A stretch of DNA of 64,000 nt from Pyrinomonadaceae bacterium (lineage in GTDB: Bacteria; Acidobacteriota; Blastocatellia; Pyrinomonadales; Pyrinomonadaceae): positions 2,396 through 66,395 of the forward strand of contig DATCMK010000029.1 in the NCBI GenBank assembly GCA_036563455.1, written 5' to 3'. This document shows, piece by piece, positions 4,504 to 24,076 of this stretch. The notes below the pieces were generated by a model. It ran no database searches, had not been told where the DNA came from, and saw only the letters and a list, made by a program, of their open reading frames with translations. The position numbers and the translations under genes were made by a program. Within the stretch, counting starts at the first letter, position 1, and every line of letters begins with the position of its first letter.

Positions 4504-7287
4504 TTACTTCCCGAATTTTTCCCGAATTTTCACCGCGCGTTCCAATCCGTCGACGTTTTCCAGTATTTTCAGCCGCAAATCTTTATCGAGACTCTGATTG
4601 CTCGCCAGGAATTTGTTGACCGTGTCCAAAGCCTCCCGGCTTTTTTGCCCGCCGAGAAAGGCGCCGAGCCAGCCGTTGACGAAGAAGATCTTGCGCGTGC
4701 GCTTGAGATTCGGCAGTTCGGCGAGCGCGGTTTCCAGGTACGGCAGCGTCAGTTCGGAATGCCGGGCGGAATTGAACGGCACGAACGCCGCTTCGATCCA
4801 GCTTTCCGAAATGTTTTTGTCGGTCATAAAATCCCGGAAATACTTCGCTTTCGATTCGGTCGTCGCGATTCCGGCGCGCGCCGCGTATGCGTAGCGTTTC
4901 GCGTCGTCCGAGGTTTCCGTTTTTTCGAGATTCGCCAAAAGCTGCGGCGCGTCATTGTCGCCCAAAACGAGCAGGCGCGTGACGAGATCGAATTTGTCCT
5001 TCGTGCGCAATTGAAATACGGCGAGCTTCGATTTTCCGGCGAGAATGTCTTTCAGATTCTGCCGCGCCTGCGCGCTCGACGCCAGATTCAAGTACGCGCG
5101 GTAAAACGTGATGCGCTGACCGGGCGTTTTGGCGCTGCCGATGCGCTCGGTCAACACCGTTTCGAGCCGGGTCGAAAGCTGGTCGCGCGCGGCGTTCGGA
5201 ATGTAGTAATTCAGCGCCGTGCCGACGCGCGACAGAATCGCGTTGATCGTCGATTCATCCTCTTCGACGGCGATGTTTTTGATCGCCAGTTCGACGTAAT
5301 CTTTCGGATTTAGTTCCGCTTCGCGGACCGAATCCCACAAGCTGCCCCACATCATCGAGCGCAGAAAATCGTCCTTTTCCGTCTCGATATTTTTCAAGAC
5401 GTAATCGCGGCTTTTCTCGTCGAGCAAAAAGATGCCGTAGCCGTAATCCTGATAGTTCGGGAAAATCAAATCGGGCATCGGATGATTGCGGTTATAGTTT
5501 TTATCCTTATCAAACAATCGGGGCAGATAGTCGGTGTACGGATTTCCGGACACAAGGTTCTCCTGAATTTCCGTTTCCGCGCCGTATTTGTATAAGGTTT
5601 TAACTCGTATCGCCCAGGGAGAATCGGCGAAAGGAGCGCTCAGCTCCAATCCGAGCGCGGGGACCATCAACGAGCCCGCCGTGAATTTTCCTTGCGAGTC
5701 GGTCTGCGATTTTTCGTAATGACCTTCGATCAGCTTAACGCGAATAATCGGAACGCCGGGCTGCTTGACCCAATACTCCGCCCACTCCGGCAATCCGCGG
5801 CGGTCGTAAACTTTATTGAATTCATTGACCAAATCTTTCCATTCGGCGTTCGCGTATTCGTGTTTTTTCAAAAACGCGCGCACTGCCGCTTGAAATTTGT
5901 CCTCGCCCAGATAAAATTCCGCCTGCCGCAAAAACGACGGCGCTTTGCGGTAAACGATGTTGCCGTAAGCGCTTTTGGCGGCTGAAAGATTCGGGATTTC
6001 CTGATAGATCGGCGTCGTGCCCTTCGTCGAATCCGTTAAGTAGGCGAGCGGCTTGTTGCGCTCGTAAAAGGCTTTCCAAGCGTTGTATTCGGGCATCACT
6101 TTTTCGAGCGTTTTATACGCCATGAACTCGGCGAAACCTTCTTTCAGCCATAAATCGTCGAACCATTTCATCGTCACCGTGTCGCCGAACCATTGGTGCG
6201 CGGCTTCGTGAAAGATCAGGTTCGCGCGCGAGACGTAATCGTTCTTCGTCGGCTCGCTCGGAAAGATGACGCTCGCCTCTCTCAAAAACGTCGCGCCGGC
6301 GTGTTCCATGCCGCCGAACGGAAATTCGGGAATCAAAACCGTGTCGTACTTCGAAAACGGGAATTTGTGATCGAAATACGTTTCGAGAGTTTTGACGCCC
6401 TCGCGCGTCAGACGAAAGAATTCCTTTTCGTGCGGCTTGAATTTTTCCGCCTGCGAGCGGCGCACGAAGACGCGGAAATTGTTGACGGTTCCTTCCATCG
6501 CCAAGTCTTTGATCGATTCGCCCTTCTCATTGACCGGACGGTTTTCCTGAAAGTCGACGAAATCGCCGGCGGCAAAAGCGAAAACGTACGTGCTGATCGG
6601 CTTGGTTTCGGCGAACGTGAAACGGTCGGTGTCGGTGTTGTAGTCCGACGTTTTGCCGATCGAATTGCTGACGACGCGTTCGAAAGATTTACTCGCGACT
6701 TCGAGCGTAAAGCGTGCCTTCAAATCCGGCTGATCGAAGACGGGAAAAGCGGTGCTCGCGTCCGACGGGACGAACAGCGAATAGATATACTCCGCGCCGT
6801 CTTCCTTATCGACGTAGCGCGTGAGCGCGGCGCCGGAAGTCTTGATCGGCGAGCCGAATTTGATGTCGATGACGTTTTCGCCCGCTTTCAAAAGCCTTTT
6901 GGCGATGATGATATGTTCTTTGTCGACCGCATACGCGAAGTTTCCGCTGCCCGGCAATTCTTTGACGACCGATTCGTTGACTTTGACGACCTCGGCGAAC
7001 GGCTTGTCCTTATCGTTCGCAAACTGCGTCGTGCGCCAATCGAGAATCAAATCCTGTTTCGCGCCTTCTTCCGATAAATCGACGCGAATTTCGATCTCGC
7101 CGGCCATCAGCGGCGCTTGCTTTTCGAGCGTCAGATTCAATTTGTAACGCACGTCCGAGTAATGCGCGGCGCGCCATTTCGCGAGCGCCTGCGAAACGCC
7201 CGCCTCGATTTGCGCCGGCGGATTTTGCGCGCAGCTGATTTCCGTCATCATAAGCGTCAGAAACAAAAGGAATGCGAAAAGCTTCAT
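4504..7287 (-). CDS. pepN: M1 family zinc aminopeptidase (aminopeptidase N-like), secreted
   Basis: Carries the HEAAHQWFGD...WLKEGFAEF (HExxH-x18-E) motif and is 927 aa long. N-terminal signal peptide MKLFAFLLFLTLMMTEISCAQ. Confidence 0.85.
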   Translation of the reverse strand: MKLFAFLLFLTLMMTEISCAQNPPAQIEAGVSQALAKWRAAHYSDVRYKLNLTLEKQAPLMAGEIEIRVDLSEEGAKQDLILDWRTTQFANDKDKPFAEVVKVNESVVKELPGSGNFAYAVDKEHIIIAKRLLKAGENVIDIKFGSPIKTSGAALTRYVDKEDGAEYIYSLFVPSDASTAFPVFDQPDLKARFTLEVASKSFERVVSNSIGKTSDYNTDTDRFTFAETKPISTYVFAFAAGDFVDFQENRPVNEKGESIKDLAMEGTVNNFRVFVRRSQAEKFKPHEKEFFRLTREGVKTLETYFDHKFPFSKYDTVLIPEFPFGGMEHAGATFLREASVIFPSEPTKNDYVSRANLIFHEAAHQWFGDTVTMKWFDDLWLKEGFAEFMAYKTLEKVMPEYNAWKAFYERNKPLAYLTDSTKGTTPIYQEIPNLSAAKSAYGNIVYRKAPSFLRQAEFYLGEDKFQAAVRAFLKKHEYANAEWKDLVNEFNKVYDRRGLPEWAEYWVKQPGVPIIRVKLIEGHYEKSQTDSQGKFTAGSLMVPALGLELSAPFADSPWAIRVKTLYKYGAETEIQENLVSGNPYTDYLPRLFDKDKNYNRNHPMPDLIFPNYQDYGYGIFLLDEKSRDYVLKNIETEKDDFLRSMMWGSLWDSVREAELNPKDYVELAIKNIAVEEDESTINAILSRVGTALNYYIPNAARDQLSTRLETVLTERIGSAKTPGQRITFYRAYLNLASSAQARQNLKDILAGKSKLAVFQLRTKDKFDLVTRLLVLGDNDAPQLLANLEKTETSDDAKRYAYAARAGIATTESKAKYFRDFMTDKNISESWIEAAFVPFNSARHSELTLPYLETALAELPNLKRTRKIFFVNGWLGAFLGGQKSREALDTVNKFLASNQSLDKDLRLKILENVDGLERAVKIREKFGK

Positions 7288-14533: not shown

Positions 14534-15640
14534 TTACTTTTTCGAAAACCTTTGAAGTGAAGCCACGAATAAAATAACGATCGCCTGCAAAACCTCAACC
14601 AAATCTTTGGAAACGTGTTCGGTAAAGGCGTCAACGAAAATGCCGCCGCGCGACAAAATTGCGAAAAATATCGCGGCGAGAAAGACTCCGAGCGGGTGAT
14701 TCCGACCGAGAAGCGCGACCGCGATTCCGAGAAAACCGACCTCGCCCGAAAAATCGTGATAGTAAAGATAGCGGTTGCCGAGCACCTCGCCGATCGCGAC
14801 CATCCCCGCCAAAGCGCCGGAAATCGTCATCGCGATGATGATCTGTTTGCGCGGCGAAATTCCGCCGTACTCCGCCGCCGAAGCATTTTGCCCGACCGCG
14901 CGCAGCTCGTAGCCCCATTTGGTTTTCCATAAAAAGACGTAAACCAGCACGCACATCAAAATCGCGATCAGAAACGCGACGCTGAGCGGCACGAAAGCCG
15001 ACATGCCCGGGATGAACTGGCTGATGCGCGGAATCTGCGCCGCCGCGCCGATCGGCGCGGTCTGCAGAATCGGATCGCCCGGCACTTTGTAGTAATACTG
15101 CGTGAAATAGCTGACCAGCGAGATGGCGATGAAGTTCAGCATGATGGTGTTGATGACTTCGTGCGAACCGAACTTTGCTTTCAGGAATCCGGGAATCGCG
15201 CCCCATAAACCGCCGACCGCCATCGCCGTCAAAATGCATAAAGGAACCAGCAGAAAAGCCGGAAGCGACGCCCACGACCAGTTTTCCTGCGTGCCGGCGA
15301 CGTCGACGATCGTGCCGCCGAATTTGATGCCGACCCAGGCGGTCGCGAACGACGCGACGTAGAGCTGCCCTTCCGCGCCGATGTTCAGAAGCCCGCAGCG
15401 AAACGCCACGGCGACCGCCAGCCCCGTGAAAATCAGCGGCGTGGCGATAAAGAGCGTGTAACCGAAACTGTCCAGAGAATTAAAAGAATTTCCGATTAAT
15501 TCGGCATACGCCCGAAACGGGTTGTCGCCGATCAGCAGAACGATGATGCCGCCGACGACGAGCGCCGCAATAACCGCGACGAGAGGCGAAATTATTTCAC
15601 GAAGTATGTTCATTTTTACAAAATTAGCCGCGCGTCTCAT
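14534..15640 (-). CDS. ABC transporter permease (RnsC/YufP-like). The start may be the internal Met (MNILREI..).
   Basis: Multi-pass permease paired with 13550..14455. The N-terminal 9 codons are encoded by an AATTAGCCGCG-like sequence. Confidence 0.75.
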   Translation of the reverse strand: MRRAANFVKMNILREIISPLVAVIAALVVGGIIVLLIGDNPFRAYAELIGNSFNSLDSFGYTLFIATPLIFTGLAVAVAFRCGLLNIGAEGQLYVASFATAWVGIKFGGTIVDVAGTQENWSWASLPAFLLVPLCILTAMAVGGLWGAIPGFLKAKFGSHEVINTIMLNFIAISLVSYFTQYYYKVPGDPILQTAPIGAAAQIPRISQFIPGMSAFVPLSVAFLIAILMCVLVYVFLWKTKWGYELRAVGQNASAAEYGGISPRKQIIIAMTISGALAGMVAIGEVLGNRYLYYHDFSGEVGFLGIAVALLGRNHPLGVFLAAIFFAILSRGGIFVDAFTEHVSKDLVEVLQAIVILFVASLQRFSKK

Positions 15641-15787
15641 ACGTTAAAAAAGCGAATGTATCAAGATGTTGGGGCTTAGATTTTTGGAAAGAGACTCTCG
15701 CTAAATATAACCGACGAGGGCTTAAGGTGTCATCTGAGAAGGATGAAAAGTTAATTTTTTACGGATTCAAAATTTTTTGTAAAAAGA

Positions 15788-15817
15788 CTTGACAAGAAGG
15801 CACTCAAGTTTTATTAT
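15788..15817 (+). promoter_or_regulatory. Sigma70-type promoter (TTGACA-17-TATTAT) overlapped by a HAIR-like inverted repeat CTTGACA-N7-ACTCAAG (HspR-type operator) upstream of hsp20
   Basis: cTTGACAagaaggcACTCAAGttTTATTATgg. The -35 and -10 hexamers are near-consensus with a 17-bp spacer. The IR matches the HAIR consensus CTTGAGT-N7-ACTCAAG at 13 of 14 positions. Confidence 0.6.
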
Positions 15818-15822
15818 GGTTT

Positions 15823-15853
15823 CAGACTACAATTTATTTATAAATCTAGTCTG
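15823..15853 (+). promoter_or_regulatory. Near-perfect 31-bp palindrome CAGACTAcaatttatttataaatcTAGTCTG at or just after the predicted TSS of hsp20 (operator or 5'-UTR hairpin)
   Basis: Read directly. It lies between the -10 box and the SD (AGGAGG at about 15871). Confidence 0.5.
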
Positions 15854-15885
15854 AATAAATCAAACATTTTAGGAGGAAACATACA

Positions 15886-16395
15886 ATGAACATCATCAAA
15901 TACGACCCTTTTCGTGAAATGCGCAGTTTGCAGGATGAAGTGAACCGTCTGTTTGCTTCAAGTTTCTCGCGCGGCAGCAGCAGTGAAAGCGATTTAATGC
16001 GCGGCGCGTGGACGCCGAGCGTCGACATCTTCGAAAACCAGAACGAAATCGTGCTCGAGGCGGAATTGCCGGGCATGAAACCGGAAGACGTCAATATTTC
16101 GATCGAAAACAACGTTCTGACGATTCACGGCGAACGCAAATTCGAAAAGAAAGACGAAGGCGATAATTTCCATCGCGTCGAACGTTCCTACGGCGGCTTT
16201 ACGCGCTCGTTCACGCTGCCGCCGACCGTTTCGAGCGAAAACGCGAACGCCGAATTCGAAAACGGCGTCCTGCGCTTAACGCTCGCCAAACGCGAGGAAG
16301 CCAAGCCGCGCCGCATCGAAATCAAAGCGACCGGCGGCGGTTCGCAGCCGAAAACGATCGACACAAAAGCCAAATCGGACACGGCTAACGCATAA
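15886..16395 (+). CDS. Hsp20/alpha-crystallin family small heat shock protein
   Basis: The alpha-crystallin domain is present (..WTPSVDIFENQNEIVLEAELPGMKPEDVNISIENNVLTIHGER..) with a strong SD. Confidence 0.9.
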   Translation: MNIIKYDPFREMRSLQDEVNRLFASSFSRGSSSESDLMRGAWTPSVDIFENQNEIVLEAELPGMKPEDVNISIENNVLTIHGERKFEKKDEGDNFHRVERSYGGFTRSFTLPPTVSSENANAEFENGVLRLTLAKREEAKPRRIEIKATGGGSQPKTIDTKAKSDTANA

Positions 16396-16498
16396 CAAAT
16401 GTAAGGGCGACGGCTTGTCCTCGCCCGTTCGTTTCTTAATGAACAATCAGCGGGCGACCACAAGGGTTCGCCCCTACAATTTTACGGATTTATAAAAA

Positions 16499-19096
<2,598 letters not shown>

Positions 19097-19100
19097 AGAT

Positions 19101-19190
19101 TTTTAGCCGCGAACAAACACGAAAGGGCGCGAAATTTTCATGTTTGAAGTTAGATTAATTCGTGAAGTTTCGTGTTTGTTCGCGGCTGAT
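19101..19190. repeat. Family-1 palindromic intergenic element (copy a), immediately after the clpB stop
   Basis: ttttAGCCGCGAACAAACACGAAA...TTTCGTGTTTGTTCGCGGCTgat, with arms of about 20 bp perfect. Confidence 0.85.
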
Positions 19191-19250
19191 TTTTCCCAAA
19201 AGATAAATGGTTTGTTAGACTAAAACCTTACGATCTATTTATCGAAATTT

Positions 19251-19910
19251 ATGAGTTGGTTTAATAAAAAAAAGATGAACGAGAAAGATTTTAATAACGA
19301 AGAAATATTAGAAGATATTTTGGAAGAAAACGACGGTCAGGAAAGCGGCTTCGATTCGGAAGCGCCGAAACAGCAGGTCAAATCGATGCGCGAAACCGAG
19401 CTTGAAAACAAGCTGAAAGCCGAAACCGAGCGGCGCGAAGCGGCCGAAGCCAAACTCGTCGGCGTGCAGACGAAGTTCGAAGAAATCAAAACGCAGATGG
19501 AGCGCGAGACGCAGGAAATGCGCGGACGCATGCAGAAAACGCTCGAAGACCGCGCTAAACAGGGTCAGTTCAGCTTTTTGACGACGCTGCTGCCCGTTTT
19601 GGACAACTTGAACTTGGCGATCGATCACGCCGAAAAAGATTCGTCGCTCGAACATCTTTTGGGCGGGGTCAAAGGCACGGCGCGCTCGTTCGAGCAGGCG
19701 CTGATAAGCGTCGGCGTCGAGCCGGTCAAGTCGATCGGCGAGGAATTCAATCCCGAATTCCACGAGGCGGTCGATATGGTCGCGGTCGAACCGGAAAACG
19801 ACGGACGCATCACGGCGGAATATTCGCGCGGCTATCGTTTCGGCGACCGGCTGCTGCGTCCGGCGCGCGTGCAGGTCGGAAAAGCGATGGCGCAAACCGC
19901 CGGCGAATGA
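19251..19910 (+). CDS. grpE: Nucleotide exchange factor GrpE
   Basis: Coiled-coil N-terminus plus the GrpE C-terminal domain (..LLPVLDNLNLAIDHA.., ..HEAVDMVAVEPEN..). Confidence 0.85.
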   Translation: MSWFNKKKMNEKDFNNEEILEDILEENDGQESGFDSEAPKQQVKSMRETELENKLKAETERREAAEAKLVGVQTKFEEIKTQMERETQEMRGRMQKTLEDRAKQGQFSFLTTLLPVLDNLNLAIDHAEKDSSLEHLLGGVKGTARSFEQALISVGVEPVKSIGEEFNPEFHEAVDMVAVEPENDGRITAEYSRGYRFGDRLLRPARVQVGKAMAQTAGE

Positions 19911-19914
19911 TCTT

Positions 19915-20226
19915 ATGACCGCGAAAATTCCGCTCGCCTGTCGCCTGACCGATAAAGAGCTGCAGGCGCGACGAAAAAACTATCTCGATAAAGCCGCCGA
20001 ATCGCTGATCGATTCGGCGGAACTGTCTGACGGGTTCGTTTATCGTTTCCCGCTCCGCGACTCGACGCTCCGGGATTTGGCCGAGATCATCGAGCTCGAG
20101 CGAAAATGCTGCCCGTTTTTGAACTTCCGGCTGATCGTGAACGCCGGCGACGATTTCGTTTCGCTCGAGCTGACCGGCGCGGAAGGAACGAAAGAGATCG
20201 TCGAATCGCTATTTAACTGGAATTGA
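19915..20226 (+). CDS. Hypothetical small protein (103 aa, conserved CC pair), tightly coupled to grpE
   Basis: Starts 4 nt after the grpE stop. GC3-rich coding signal. No family recognised. Confidence 0.45.
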   Translation: MTAKIPLACRLTDKELQARRKNYLDKAAESLIDSAELSDGFVYRFPLRDSTLRDLAEIIELERKCCPFLNFRLIVNAGDDFVSLELTGAEGTKEIVESLFNWN

Positions 20227-20798
20227 AACACCTTTTGAAAATTACCGCCTTTACGGGGCTGAGCCTCGCCTTTTCGCTGACGTTGATCGCTTCGGGCTGC
20301 CGAACCGCGCCGGAAACGAAAACGGAAAATGCGAGCGCGCCGCCCGCTTCGGTGCAGCCCGCCGGAACGCCGCCGCGCGTTTCTCCGATATCCGTCCAGA
20401 CAATTCCGATCGACGTCCCGCGACTCGCCGGTAAATCCATCGACGAGCTCGATGAAGTTTTCGGCGCGCCGGAGGAAGCGAGTTCGATCGAGAGCGGCGG
20501 CGAGTTTCGTTTGTACCGGATCGGCGGGCAAAGCAAGGGCTTGGCGGTTCGCTTTTACGGCAAACGGGCGAAAAGTTTCAATTTGATTTTGGACGAACCC
20601 GTTTCGACGTCGCAATCGGCATTGAAACAAATTTTTAATATCGATGTCGGCGAATCCGCGCCGCTCAAAGACGCCCGGGAGCCGTTGACGGACGTTTACC
20701 GCGGCGTTTTCGGCGGCGTGAAGTTTAAAAAAGTTTCCGCCAAAAAACAGGAAAACGGAAAGGGATACATCTTCGTCCTCGCCGAGGTCGGGGAATAA
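20223..20798 (+). CDS. Hypothetical lipoprotein (TTG start, lipobox LIASGC)
   Basis: The TTG start overlaps the upstream stop. Signal peptide plus Cys lipobox. No family recognised. Confidence 0.5.
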   Translation: MKHLLKITAFTGLSLAFSLTLIASGCRTAPETKTENASAPPASVQPAGTPPRVSPISVQTIPIDVPRLAGKSIDELDEVFGAPEEASSIESGGEFRLYRIGGQSKGLAVRFYGKRAKSFNLILDEPVSTSQSALKQIFNIDVGESAPLKDAREPLTDVYRGVFGGVKFKKVSAKKQENGKGYIFVLAEVGE

Positions 20799-20955
20799 AC
20801 CTTTCAAGCGAAAGAATTTACCGCTCGGAAGCCCGTTATTTTCGGCTTTTCCCGAAAAAACTTTCAGCAAACGGTCGGCGAAATGATATGATATTTAAGG
20901 CAGAACGGACATGCTTTTCGGCATCAAAGTCTTAGTTTTAACAAGAGAGAAATAT

Positions 20956-23235
<2,280 letters not shown>

Positions 23236-23254
23236 ATTACAAATAATCTTGTCA

Positions 23255-23295
23255 AAAAAGGCTCAAACGAAGTATTATCGTTTGAGCCTTTTCTC
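23255..23295 (+). terminator. Rho-independent terminator after the ClpA/C-like gene
   Basis: aaaaaaGGCTCAAACGaagtattatCGTTTGAGCCttttctcg, a stem followed by a T-run. Confidence 0.7.
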
Positions 23296-23322
23296 GTTTC
23301 GAGAAAGAATCCCCAAAATAAT

Positions 23323-23997
23323 ATGATCAAACAAAACTCAATGCTCCGCCTGTTTTTTCTGTGTTTATTTTTCGCTTTTCCGACCGCCGCGCAGGCGCAG
23401 GAAATTTCCTTCAATTATTTTTACCGATTCGGTCGCGTCGAGGCGGACGAAGCGCCGCGCATCAACGGCGTCGACATCGATTATCCGGAAACGGCGCGCA
23501 AAAACGGAGTCGAAGGCACGCTGAAGGCCAGTTTGGTACTCGGCGAAGACGGCAAGGTTCGAGACATCAAGATTTTGCAAACCCTGCCGCACGGCGTCGA
23601 ACCGGCGGTCATGAAGGGCTTGCAGGGCTTGTATTTCGTGCCGGCGAAGCTCGAAGGAAAGTCGGTCGCGATTCCGATGGAATTCGATTTCGTCGTGACG
23701 GCCGTTTACGGCGAAGAAGACAAAAACGTCGCCAAACCGAAAATCCTCGAAAAGCCCGCGCCGGTTTATCCCGCCAAATACGCGGCGGAAAAAGTAAAGG
23801 GCAAGGTTCTCGTCAGCGTCTTATTTTTCGCCGACGGAAAGGTCAAGGTTTTGGGCGCCCAAAGCTCGATGCCGAAGGAATTCGACAAAGCCGCCATCGA
23901 AGCCGCCGGGAAAATTCGTTTTCTGCCCGCCGCGCACAAGAAAAGCAAGGCGGACGTCGCCCAGAAAATGATGGTCGAATACGACTTTAAGCCGTAA
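23323..23997 (+). CDS. Secreted protein with two tandem TonB C-terminal-like domains
   Basis: Signal peptide MIKQNSMLRLFFLCLFFAFPTAAQA. Two TonB_C-like repeats (..DYPETARKNGVEGTLKASLVLGEDGKV.. and ..PVYPAKYAAEKVKGKVLVSVLFFADGKV..). Confidence 0.6.
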   Translation: MIKQNSMLRLFFLCLFFAFPTAAQAQEISFNYFYRFGRVEADEAPRINGVDIDYPETARKNGVEGTLKASLVLGEDGKVRDIKILQTLPHGVEPAVMKGLQGLYFVPAKLEGKSVAIPMEFDFVVTAVYGEEDKNVAKPKILEKPAPVYPAKYAAEKVKGKVLVSVLFFADGKVKVLGAQSSMPKEFDKAAIEAAGKIRFLPAAHKKSKADVAQKMMVEYDFKP

Positions 23998-24076
23998 TTT
24001 TTTCGCGCCCGATCGAACCAAAAACAACTTCTCGCATCAAAGGCTTTAGTGGTAAAATCCCTAAAGCCTTTTTACT

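What the first reader, a model, noticed from the sequence alone, without database searches (positions are those of the whole stretch)
15788..15885. hsp20 promoter carries an HspR-type HAIR-like operator overlapping a consensus sigma70 -35, plus a second 31-bp palindrome at the transcript start
CTTGACA-N7-ACTCAAG matches the HAIR consensus (CTTGAGT-N7-ACTCAAG) bound by HspR in Actinobacteria, Deinococcus, Helicobacter and relatives. Here the left half-site doubles as a perfect TTGACA -35 with a 17-bp spacer to TATTAT.

Immediately downstream, CAGACTACAATTTATTTATAAATCTAGTCTG is a near-perfect palindrome at or just after the TSS. It could be a second operator or a 5'-UTR hairpin.

No hspR (MerR-family) gene is in the window and no CIRCE element was seen. 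The regulator is therefore encoded elsewhere, or the site is bound by something else.

The heat-shock island (hsp20-clpB-grpE-103aa-lipoprotein-clpA/C) lacks dnaK/dnaJ next to grpE, which is unusual.
Basis: partly seen in the sequence, partly recalled or inferred. Interest (0 to 1): 0.55.

Follow-up and report, generated by a model that had tools for sequence, protein, structure and literature searches.

The report
Heat-shock repressor site in hsp20 promoter
The promoter of a small heat-shock gene in an uncultured soil acidobacterium carries a conserved switch sequence that most likely binds the known heat-shock repressor HspR, followed by a small RNA hairpin at the start of the message; this is a known kind of control seen in a phylum where it has not been described.

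Summary
CTTGACA-N7-ACTCAAG (15788-15808) overlaps a TTGACA-17-TATTAT promoter, and a 31-nt palindrome follows (15823-15853).

The window is a Pyrinomonadaceae (Acidobacteriota, Blastocatellia) metagenome contig. In 43 of 44 related hsp20 loci the block aCTTGACA-N7-cACTCA-NN-TTTTATTAT is kept, but the last two bases of the right arm vary. So an ACTCA box at about -22 to -18 is conserved, not the full dyad.

They precede hsp20 (101), clpB (9), dnaK (9) and lon (1); one is cut off. That is the classical HspR regulon.

In five separate lineages the same box heads operons that contain hspR. This is the signature of an autoregulated repressor. I therefore read the site as a HAIR-type HspR operator fused to a strong promoter.

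I could not show an hspR gene in Pyrinomonadaceae. Relatives do carry a separate hrcA-grpE-dnaK-dnaJ operon, which explains why dnaK is missing from this island.

The second palindrome is best read as a 5'-terminal mRNA stem-loop, not a second operator. Its loop length varies, changes are compensatory or G·U, and the short loops are mostly GNRA. Its left arm, (G)ACTAA, is also a fixed box in promoters that have no hairpin.

The parts
15769..15778 (+). A4-T6 tract, an UP-element-like sequence upstream of the -35
   Evidence: aaaa.tttt is conserved at -20 to -12 from TTGACA in 44 Blastocatellia promoters, about 1 bit per position. Its function is inferred.
15788..15794 (+). CTTGACA: the left HAIR-like half-site, which contains the -35 hexamer TTGACA (15789-15794)
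   Evidence: Invariant in the relatives; the unforced C at -1 is present in 44 of 44. The same geometry occurs in hspR operons.
15795..15801 (+). 7-nt gap of the operator; variable sequence except for the last base (mostly C)
   Evidence: Information is 0.5 bit or less at positions 7-11; C is present in 35 of 44 at position 12.
15802..15808 (+). ACTCA box (15802-15806) plus AG: the right HAIR half-site ACTCAAG, at about -22 to -16
   Evidence: ACTCA is kept in 43 of 44 relatives (GCTCA in L046). The next two bases vary: TA 15, AG 10, GG 9, GA 7, CA 2, AC 1.
15809..15817 (+). TTTTATTAT: a T-tract that flanks the half-site, plus the -10 hexamer TATTAT (15812-15817)
   Evidence: The bifidobacterial HAIR consensus also ends in CTCAAsTTTT (PMC9004370).
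15824..15830 (+). Predicted transcription start (A15824 or G15825) and the GACTAA-type box (GACTAC in this window)
   Evidence: The register is fixed at positions 36-41 after the TTGACA. The box is found before hsp20, clpB and dnaK genes, with or without a complementary arm. The start site is inferred from the -10 only.
15823..15853 (+). 5'-terminal mRNA stem-loop (the 'second palindrome')
   Evidence: -8.3 kcal/mol. A hairpin at the same place is seen in most relatives. A perfect 6-nt right arm occurs in 46% of CTAA-class promoters against 1% of shuffles; there are 8 G·U against 2 A·C mismatches, and compensatory variants. Loops are mostly GNRA.
15871..15876 (+). Shine-Dalgarno AGGAGG, predicted unpaired
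15886..16395 (+). hsp20 (169 aa), the first gene of the operon
   Evidence: Pfam HSP20, 4.5e-25.
16400..16478 (+). Intercistronic hairpin between hsp20 and clpB
   Evidence: -38.2 kcal/mol, z = -4.1. A strong hairpin of unrelated sequence sits at the same place in the relatives that could be read.
16499..19096 (+). clpB, with no promoter motif of its own here; probably read through from the hsp20 promoter
   Evidence: Pfam. There is one motif per locus. In other contigs clpB carries the motif directly.
19251..23235 (+). grpE paralogue, orf103, orf191 and a clpA/C-like AAA+ gene: the conserved downstream part of the island
   Evidence: Co-transcription with hsp20-clpB is not shown: a terminator-like hairpin at 19105-19187 intervenes.

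Best explanation
The region 15769-15885 is a strong housekeeping-type promoter: UP-like tract, TTGACA, a 17-nt spacer, TATTAT. An operator of the HspR/HAIR family is built into it, CTTGACA-N7-ACTCA(AG)-TTTT.

Proposed mechanism:
1. At normal temperature a MerR-family HspR dimer, encoded elsewhere in the genome, sits on the -35 and spacer and blocks RNA polymerase. In Streptomyces, DnaK acts as its corepressor.
2. Under heat or protein-folding stress the repressor leaves, and hsp20-clpB is transcribed at a high rate.
3. The transcript starts at about 15824 and at once folds into a short A/U-rich stem-loop (15823-15853). This most likely protects the 5' end from decay; it does not mask the ribosome-binding site.

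Shown: the conservation, the link to heat-shock genes, and the link to hspR operons in other lineages.
Inferred: binding by HspR in this organism, the start site, and the role of the hairpin.
For: 1. Source and conservation. The contig is a JGI metagenome contig and its relatives are Pyrinomonadaceae/Blastocatellia MAGs. Of 44 related hsp20 loci with upstream DNA, 43 keep TTGACA-N7-ACTCA-NN-TTTTATTAT and one has GCTCA. The gap and the flanks vary.

2. Regulon. They precede hsp20 (101), clpB (9), dnaK (9) and lon (1); one is cut off. These are the HspR regulons reported for Streptomyces (dnaK operon, clpB, lon) and M. tuberculosis (hsp70 operon, clpB, acr2) (PMC2687793).

3. Autoregulation signature. 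The box heads operons that contain hspR:
- L064, L065, L127: dnaK-dnaJ-hspR. The 136-aa product reaches the NCBIfam HspR equivalog cut-off (106.3 against 105) and matches Pfam MerR_1.
- L177, L180: the GCTCA variant.
- L191: GC 70%, TTTACA-N7-ACTCAAG-TTTTATACT.
- L185: KSB3/Moduliflexus, dnaJ-hspR.
- L193.
- That is every hspR operon I examined for which the DNA upstream of the first operon gene was available.
- L052, an Anaerolineaceae hsp20-hspR locus, has the symmetric CTTGACA-N7-TGTCATG in the same register.

4. Geometry. TTGAs-N9-CTCA matches the published HAIR consensus CTTGAGT-N7-ACTCAAG (PMC6102357) and the bifidobacterial form AAAsTTGAGysw-N6-CTCAAsTTTT, T-tract included (PMC9004370).

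5. Hairpin.
Against: - No hspR gene was found for Pyrinomonadaceae or Blastocatellia. None lies in the window or in about 700 kb of related DNA, and the capped searches did not reach a labelled Blastocatellia HspR.
- The dyad is only half kept. A symmetric dimer would be expected to constrain both outer positions.
- The metagenome pattern fixed 21 bases, so it says nothing about regulon members whose -10 differs.
- The lineage has HrcA, so another heat-shock repressor is present, although its own operon lacks the box.
- The start site and the RNA role of the hairpin are not measured. The hairpin energy alone is not unusual (z = -1.4).
- The left arm is conserved even without a right arm, so part of that signal lies in the DNA or the promoter.
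Confidence: 0.68

Rival explanations
1. The ACTCA box is a heat-shock operator, but in Blastocatellia it is bound by a regulator other than canonical HspR. This could be an unrecognised repressor, or a factor that reads ACTCA together with the downstream GACTAA box. The resemblance to HAIR would then be partial.
For: - No hspR was found for this lineage.
- Only a half-site is invariant.
- A second fixed box, (G)ACTAA at +2 to +7, is shared by hsp20, clpB and dnaK promoters.
- dnaK in this lineage sits in an hrcA operon, not with hspR.
Against: - The same box, in the same register, heads hspR operons in five other lineages.
- The regulon equals the classical HspR regulon (PMC2687793).
- The only unassigned operon gene I tested, orf103, shows no DNA-binding fold.
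Confidence: 0.17
2. The block is only a very strong, conserved promoter, or a promoter for an alternative sigma factor, with no repressor. ACTCA and the T-tract would be polymerase or sigma contacts.
For: - The -35, the spacing and the -10 are near consensus, and an UP-like tract is present.
- The left arm varies like a -35 (TTTACA in L191).
Against: - No known sigma factor reads bases at -22 to -18 (my own knowledge).
- The full motif is confined to heat-shock genes.
- The hrcA operon promoters of the same lineage have TTGACA without ACTCA.
- The link to hspR operons is unexplained by this reading.
Confidence: 0.08
3. The second palindrome is a double-stranded DNA operator for a second dimeric regulator, not an RNA structure.
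For: - The stem sequence GACTAA/TTAGTC is conserved rather than freely covarying.
- The left arm is kept where the right arm is missing.
Against: - The distance between the arms ranges from 3 to 25 nt, and some stems extend. A dimer needs fixed spacing.
- G·U-compatible mismatches on the sense strand outnumber A·C by 8 to 2.
- Variants are compensatory: AGCTAA/TTGGCT, GGCTAA/CTAGCC, CGCTAA/TGAGCG.
- GNRA loops predominate.
- clpB and dnaK promoters carry the box without any right arm.
Confidence: 0.07

Closest known systems
HspR/HAIR heat-shock repression (Streptomyces, Mycobacterium, Bifidobacterium, Helicobacter/Campylobacter, Deinococcus-Thermus)
   Same: - Half-sites TTGAs and CTCA spaced as in CTTGAGT-N7-ACTCAAG.
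- A T-tract after the right arm, as in the bifidobacterial consensus.
- The operator overlaps the -35 and spacer.
- Targets are hsp20 (acr2-like), clpB, dnaK and lon.
- hspR lies at the end of a dnaK-dnaJ operon that carries the site, in other Acidobacteriota and in KSB3.
- It coexists with HrcA, as in Streptomyces, Bifidobacterium and Helicobacter.

   Different: - The left arm is the -35 consensus TTGACA instead of TTGAGT.
- The outer two bases of the right arm are free, so the conserved unit is a half-site plus T-tract.
- About 21 positions are near-invariant across classes of a phylum.
- dnaK of this lineage is in the hrcA operon.
- No hspR gene has yet been shown for Pyrinomonadaceae.
HrcA/CIRCE
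   Same: - A repressor system for chaperone genes.
- HrcA is encoded in Pyrinomonadaceae relatives.
- CACTC occurs in both elements.
   Different: - No CIRCE in the window.
- The spacing from CACTC to CTAA is 21 nt, not 14.
- The hrcA operon promoters lack the ACTCA box.
5'-terminal stabilising stem-loops of bacterial mRNAs (for example the ompA leader; my own knowledge)
   Same: A hairpin that begins within 1-2 nt of the predicted 5' end and leaves the ribosome-binding site free.
   Different: - The stem sequence is itself conserved and overlaps a promoter-proximal DNA box.
- The stem is A/U-rich and weak.
- No half-life data exist.
RNA thermometers (ROSE, fourU) of small heat-shock genes
   Same: A structured leader in front of an hsp20 gene.
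   Different: The Shine-Dalgarno sequence is predicted unpaired, and no Rfam family matches.

Membership tests
HspR/HAIR operator | Inverted repeat CTTGAGT-N7-ACTCAAG, or close to it | tested here: inconclusive
   The window has 12 of 14 bases. Across relatives only TTGA..N..TCA plus the inner AC is kept; the outer AG is present in 10 of 44 and 13 of 111.
HspR/HAIR operator | Lies in the promoter of heat-shock genes of the HspR regulon (dnaK operon, clpB, lon, hsp20/acr2) | tested here: met
   The 121 metagenome sites precede hsp20 (101), clpB (9), dnaK (9) and lon (1); one is cut off (PMC2687793).
HspR/HAIR operator | Present upstream of the operon that encodes hspR (autoregulation) | tested here: met
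   Met in five other lineages: L064/065/127, L177/180, L185, L191 and L193. Not testable for the window's own genome.
HspR/HAIR operator | An HspR (MerR-family) gene in the same genome | not testable with these tools
   None in the window or in about 700 kb of related DNA.
HspR/HAIR operator | Binding by HspR and derepression on heat shock or hspR deletion | not testable with these tools
   Needs EMSA or footprinting and expression data.
HrcA/CIRCE | TTAGCACTC-N9-GAGTGCTAA | tested here: not met
   No match with up to 3 mismatches in the window.
RNA thermometer | The leader structure pairs with the Shine-Dalgarno sequence or start codon | tested here: not met
   The Shine-Dalgarno sequence is unpaired in the minimum-energy and centroid folds. 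No Rfam hit.
5'-terminal stabiliser hairpin | A stem-loop at the very 5' end of the transcript, kept by selection for pairing | tested here: inconclusive
   Pairing is enriched (46% against 1%), with G·U and compensatory changes. The 5' end is only predicted, and the effect on stability is untested.

The most novel reading that the evidence does not exclude
Blastocatellia may lack canonical HspR. In that case the composite element, the ACTCA box at -22 to -18 plus the fixed (G)ACTAA box at +2 to +7, would be read by an undescribed factor. The GACUAA-GNRA-UUAGUC 5' hairpin would add a second, RNA-level layer, for example heat-labile 5'-end protection. Together they would form a two-tier heat-shock switch specific to this group.
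Probability: 0.13. Interest if true: 0.6.

Novelty: new member of a known kind. Interest (0 to 1): 0.4.

Why it matters
Acidobacteriota are among the most abundant soil bacteria, yet my literature searches found no description of their heat-shock regulation.

This work gives a testable operator consensus, aCTTGACA-N7-cACTCA-NN-TTTTATTAT, and a candidate regulon: hsp20, clpB, dnaK-dnaJ-hspR and lon. It also suggests how the work is divided with HrcA in Pyrinomonadaceae.

The motif is a compact example of a repressor site merged with consensus promoter elements. It could be used to annotate stress regulons in MAGs, or as a tightly controlled strong promoter.

It does not change the picture of how HspR systems work.

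Tried and rejected
- **HspR in Blastocatellia.** I tried to find one through three protein searches, one search of cluster representatives, three cluster look-ups and contig look-ups. All HspR contexts came from other lineages (Terriglobia-like, a GC-70% group, KSB3, unknown) or had no DNA.
- **Composition screen.** Choosing candidates by amino-acid composition did not help.
- **CIRCE/HrcA as the regulator.** Rejected.
- **RNA thermometer or a known RNA family.** Rejected.
- **Second HAIR at the palindrome.** Rejected: the half-sites do not align and the spacing varies.
- **orf103 as a hidden regulator.** No family, PDB or fold match, and no helix-turn-helix in the model.
- **My first hairpin test.** The 7-nt arm version was mis-registered and was replaced.
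- **Control for ACTCA-less promoters.** The check is not independent, because the loci were fetched through the motif.

Full report
**Observation**

The sequence is as described:
- CTTGACA at 15788-15794, a 7-nt gap, then ACTCAAG at 15802-15808.
- TTGACA at 15789-15794, a 17-nt spacer, then TATTAT at 15812-15817. This scores 11 of 12 and is the best promoter-like site in 15000-24000.
- The palindrome at 15823-15853.
- GGAGG at 15872-15876, and hsp20 starting at 15886.

Taken alone the statistics are modest. HAIR with up to 2 mismatches is found once against 0.09 expected. With up to 3 mismatches it is not significant. The hairpin energy has z = -1.4.

The window holds no MerR, HspR, HrcA or CtsR gene and no CIRCE element.

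**Source and relatives**

The window is part of JGI metagenome contig Ga0436436_00134. A genome scan with the Hsp20 protein gave 52 loci. L003-L047 are Pyrinomonadaceae or Blastocatellia MAGs.

**Conservation of the promoter**

- Of the 44 relatives with upstream DNA, 43 keep TTGACA-N7-ACTCA-NN-TTTTATTAT. One, L046, has GCTCA.
- The C before TTGACA is invariant. The gap is variable, and the base before ACTCA is mostly C.
- An A4-N-T4 tract lies 12-20 nt upstream.
- The two bases after ACTCA are TA 15, AG 10, GG 9, GA 7, CA 2, AC 1. The full HAIR right arm ACTCAAG is therefore the minority state.
- Only TGA...TCA and the inner AC are symmetric or HAIR-like in all relatives.
- Each 12-kb locus has one such site, always before hsp20.

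**Regulon**

I scanned metagenomes with CTTGACA-N7-ACTCA-NN-TTTTATTAT, which fixes 21 bases. By BLAST, reading and Pfam they precede:

| Gene downstream | Sites |
|---|---|
| hsp20 (35-90% identical to the window's) | 101 |
| clpB | 9 |
| dnaK | 9 |
| lon | 1 |
| cut off | 1 |

No site precedes a gene of any other kind. This set matches the HspR regulons described for Streptomyces (dnaK operon, clpB, lon) and M. tuberculosis (hsp70 operon, clpB, acr2) (PMC2687793). In these hits the dinucleotide after ACTCA is TA in 63 of 111 unique sites and AG in 13.

**Link to hspR**

| Loci | Lineage | Operon | Promoter |
|---|---|---|---|
| L064, L065, L127 | Terriglobia-like | dnaK-dnaJ-hspR | CTTGACA-N7-ACTCAAG-TTTTATTAT |
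| L177, L180 | GC 60% | dnaK-dnaJ-permease-hspR | CTTGACA-N7-GCTCAGG-TCTTAGCAT |
| L191 | GC 70% | dnaK-dnaJ-hspR | TTTACA-N7-ACTCAAG-TTTTATACT |
| L185 | Ca. Moduliflexus/KSB3 (named hits) | dnaJ-hspR-sigma factor | CTTGACA-N7-ACTCATA-TCTTATTAT |
| L193 | unknown | dnaK-dnaJ-hspR | CTTGACA-N7-ACTCACA-TTCAATACT |

- The 136-aa product of the L064 group reaches the NCBIfam HspR equivalog cut-off (106.3 against 105) and matches Pfam MerR_1.
- In L191 the -35 differs but the box is kept.
- The box was present in every hspR operon whose upstream DNA I could read.
- L052, an Anaerolineaceae locus with hsp20-hspR, has the symmetric CTTGACA-N7-TGTCATG in the same register.
- A site in front of the regulator's own operon is the usual comparative signature of an autoregulated repressor.

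**Comparison with the published motif**

HAIR is CTTGAGT-N7-ACTCAAG (PMC6102357). The bifidobacterial form is AAAsTTGAGysw-N6-CTCAAsTTTT (PMC9004370). The window reads AAAGACTTGAC-N9-CTCAAGTTTT, so the half-site spacing and the flanking T-tract agree.

The differences are the -35-like inner bases of the left arm (CA in place of GT) and the free outer bases on the right. H. pylori HspR protects 70-80 bp around a central HAIR. Conserved bases outside the core, including the +2 to +7 box, could therefore still belong to the same operator. That is an inference.

**What is missing**

I could not show an hspR gene in Pyrinomonadaceae or Blastocatellia. Nothing in the window or in about 700 kb of related DNA matches an HspR profile. 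The capped protein searches returned other lineages only.

Pyrinomonadaceae relatives, including a contig syntenic with the window and the MAG that also gave L040, carry an hrcA-grpE-dnaK-dnaJ operon. Its promoter has TTGACA but no ACTCA box and no canonical CIRCE core. The grpE in the window is a paralogue, 33-35% identical. This accounts for the 'missing' dnaK/dnaJ and points to two systems, HrcA for the dnaK operon and the ACTCA box for hsp20-clpB, as in other bacteria that have both repressors.

**The second palindrome**

- In most relatives a hairpin starts at position 35-36 after the TTGACA, which is the predicted start site.
- Among 94 unique promoters with CTAA at positions 38-41, 46% have a perfect 6-nt complement within 3-32 nt, against 1.0% of shuffles. 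At 5 of 6 or better the figures are 62% against 16%.
- The loop is 4 nt in the majority, but 3-25 nt overall.
- Mismatches are G·U on the sense strand 8 times and A·C twice.
- Variant left arms come with matching right arms: AGCTAA/TTGGCT, GGCTAA/CTAGCC, CGCTAA/TGAGCG.
- Four-base loops are mostly GUAA or GUGA.
- The ribosome-binding site stays unpaired, and no Rfam family matches.

This favours an RNA stem-loop at the 5' end of the message over a duplex operator or a thermometer. I infer a stabilising role.

One observation is not fully explained. The left arm, (G)ACTAA, is kept at a fixed register in clpB and dnaK promoters and in hsp20 promoters that lack the right arm. It is therefore also a DNA-level or start-site element.

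**Operon**

- hsp20 is followed by a strong hairpin at 16400-16478 (-38.2 kcal/mol, z = -4.1).
- All relatives that could be read have a strong hairpin of unrelated sequence there, 15-30 nt before the clpB ATG. So clpB probably depends on read-through from the hsp20 promoter.
- In other contigs clpB carries the motif itself.
- After clpB there is a terminator-like hairpin (19105-19187) and a conserved grpE leader. Co-transcription of grpE-orf103-orf191-clpA/C is therefore open.

**Verdict**

This is a real, strongly conserved heat-shock promoter-operator. It most likely belongs to the HspR/HAIR family, in a phylum where my literature searches found no description of it, and it comes with a 5' mRNA stem-loop.

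- Confidence that it is a heat-shock-specific cis element: about 0.9.
- Confidence that HspR is the factor in this organism: about 0.68.

The mechanism is ordinary. The value lies in the consensus and the regulon for Acidobacteriota.

Noticed in passing
window 16396-16498: A long hairpin (16400-16478; -38.2 kcal/mol, z = -4.1) lies between hsp20 and clpB. The relatives that could be read have an equally strong hairpin of unrelated sequence at the same place, 15-30 nt before the clpB ATG. It is probably an intercistronic attenuator or 3' stabiliser that sets the hsp20:clpB ratio.
   Followed up: partly
window 19186-19250: About 17 relatives share a conserved ~65-nt grpE leader, TTTTCCCAAAAGATAAATGGTTTGTTAGACTnA...ATTTATCAAAATTTATG. 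It holds the only AGACTAA heptamer of the whole 64-kb window (19217-19223). The outer stem GAUAAAUGG/..AUUUAUC changes only by G·U, and there is no Shine-Dalgarno sequence before the ATG. It may be a weak promoter, a new leader RNA, or both.
   Followed up: partly
window 19105-19194: A long terminator-like hairpin, AGCCGCGAACAAACACGAAA...TTTCGTGTTTGTTCGCGGCT, is followed by a T run after clpB. It gave weak chance matches to microRNA precursor families in Rfam.
   Followed up: partly
window 19915-20226: orf103 (motif ERKCCPFLNF) is conserved between grpE and the clpA/C-like gene in 8 loci. It has no Pfam, NCBIfam or PDB match. The single-sequence AlphaFold model (pLDDT 75) is an alpha-beta-beta-alpha-beta-beta-alpha sandwich with no significant fold match and no helix-turn-helix.
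   Followed up: partly
window 20911-23235: The ClpA/C-like AAA+ gene after grpE is 88-96% identical across Blastocatellia relatives, far more conserved than its neighbours. hsp20-clpB-grpE-(orf103-orf191)-clpA/C is a conserved island.
   Followed up: partly
L066, L067, L079, L080, L083, L094, L099 and others (metagenome loci): Terriglobia-type hsp20 promoters with the same operator have very short leaders, GCAaTCACyttaGGAGGTGC. In these, CACC can pair with GGUG of the Shine-Dalgarno region, so they may be RNA thermometers.
   Followed up: no
L181 6015-11104; L183 5998-11113: Pyrinomonadaceae have an hrcA-grpE-dnaK(601 aa)-dnaJ operon. Its promoter region shares GTTTAACGAATAAnCTTGACA but has no canonical CIRCE core (GCACTC-N9-GAGTGC). 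The HrcA operator of this lineage may be divergent.
   Followed up: partly
L052 about 5900-6740: An Anaerolineaceae hsp20 is directly followed by an hspR-like gene and preceded by the symmetric CTTGACA-N7-TGTCATG. This is a HAIR variant whose half-site equals the -35 consensus.
   Followed up: partly
L065 7553-8320; L191 8468-9391: An IstB/DnaA-like AAA+ gene directly follows hspR in several dnaK-dnaJ-hspR operons. In two other lineages (L185, and the places that have no DNA) a sigma-70-family gene follows hspR.
   Followed up: no
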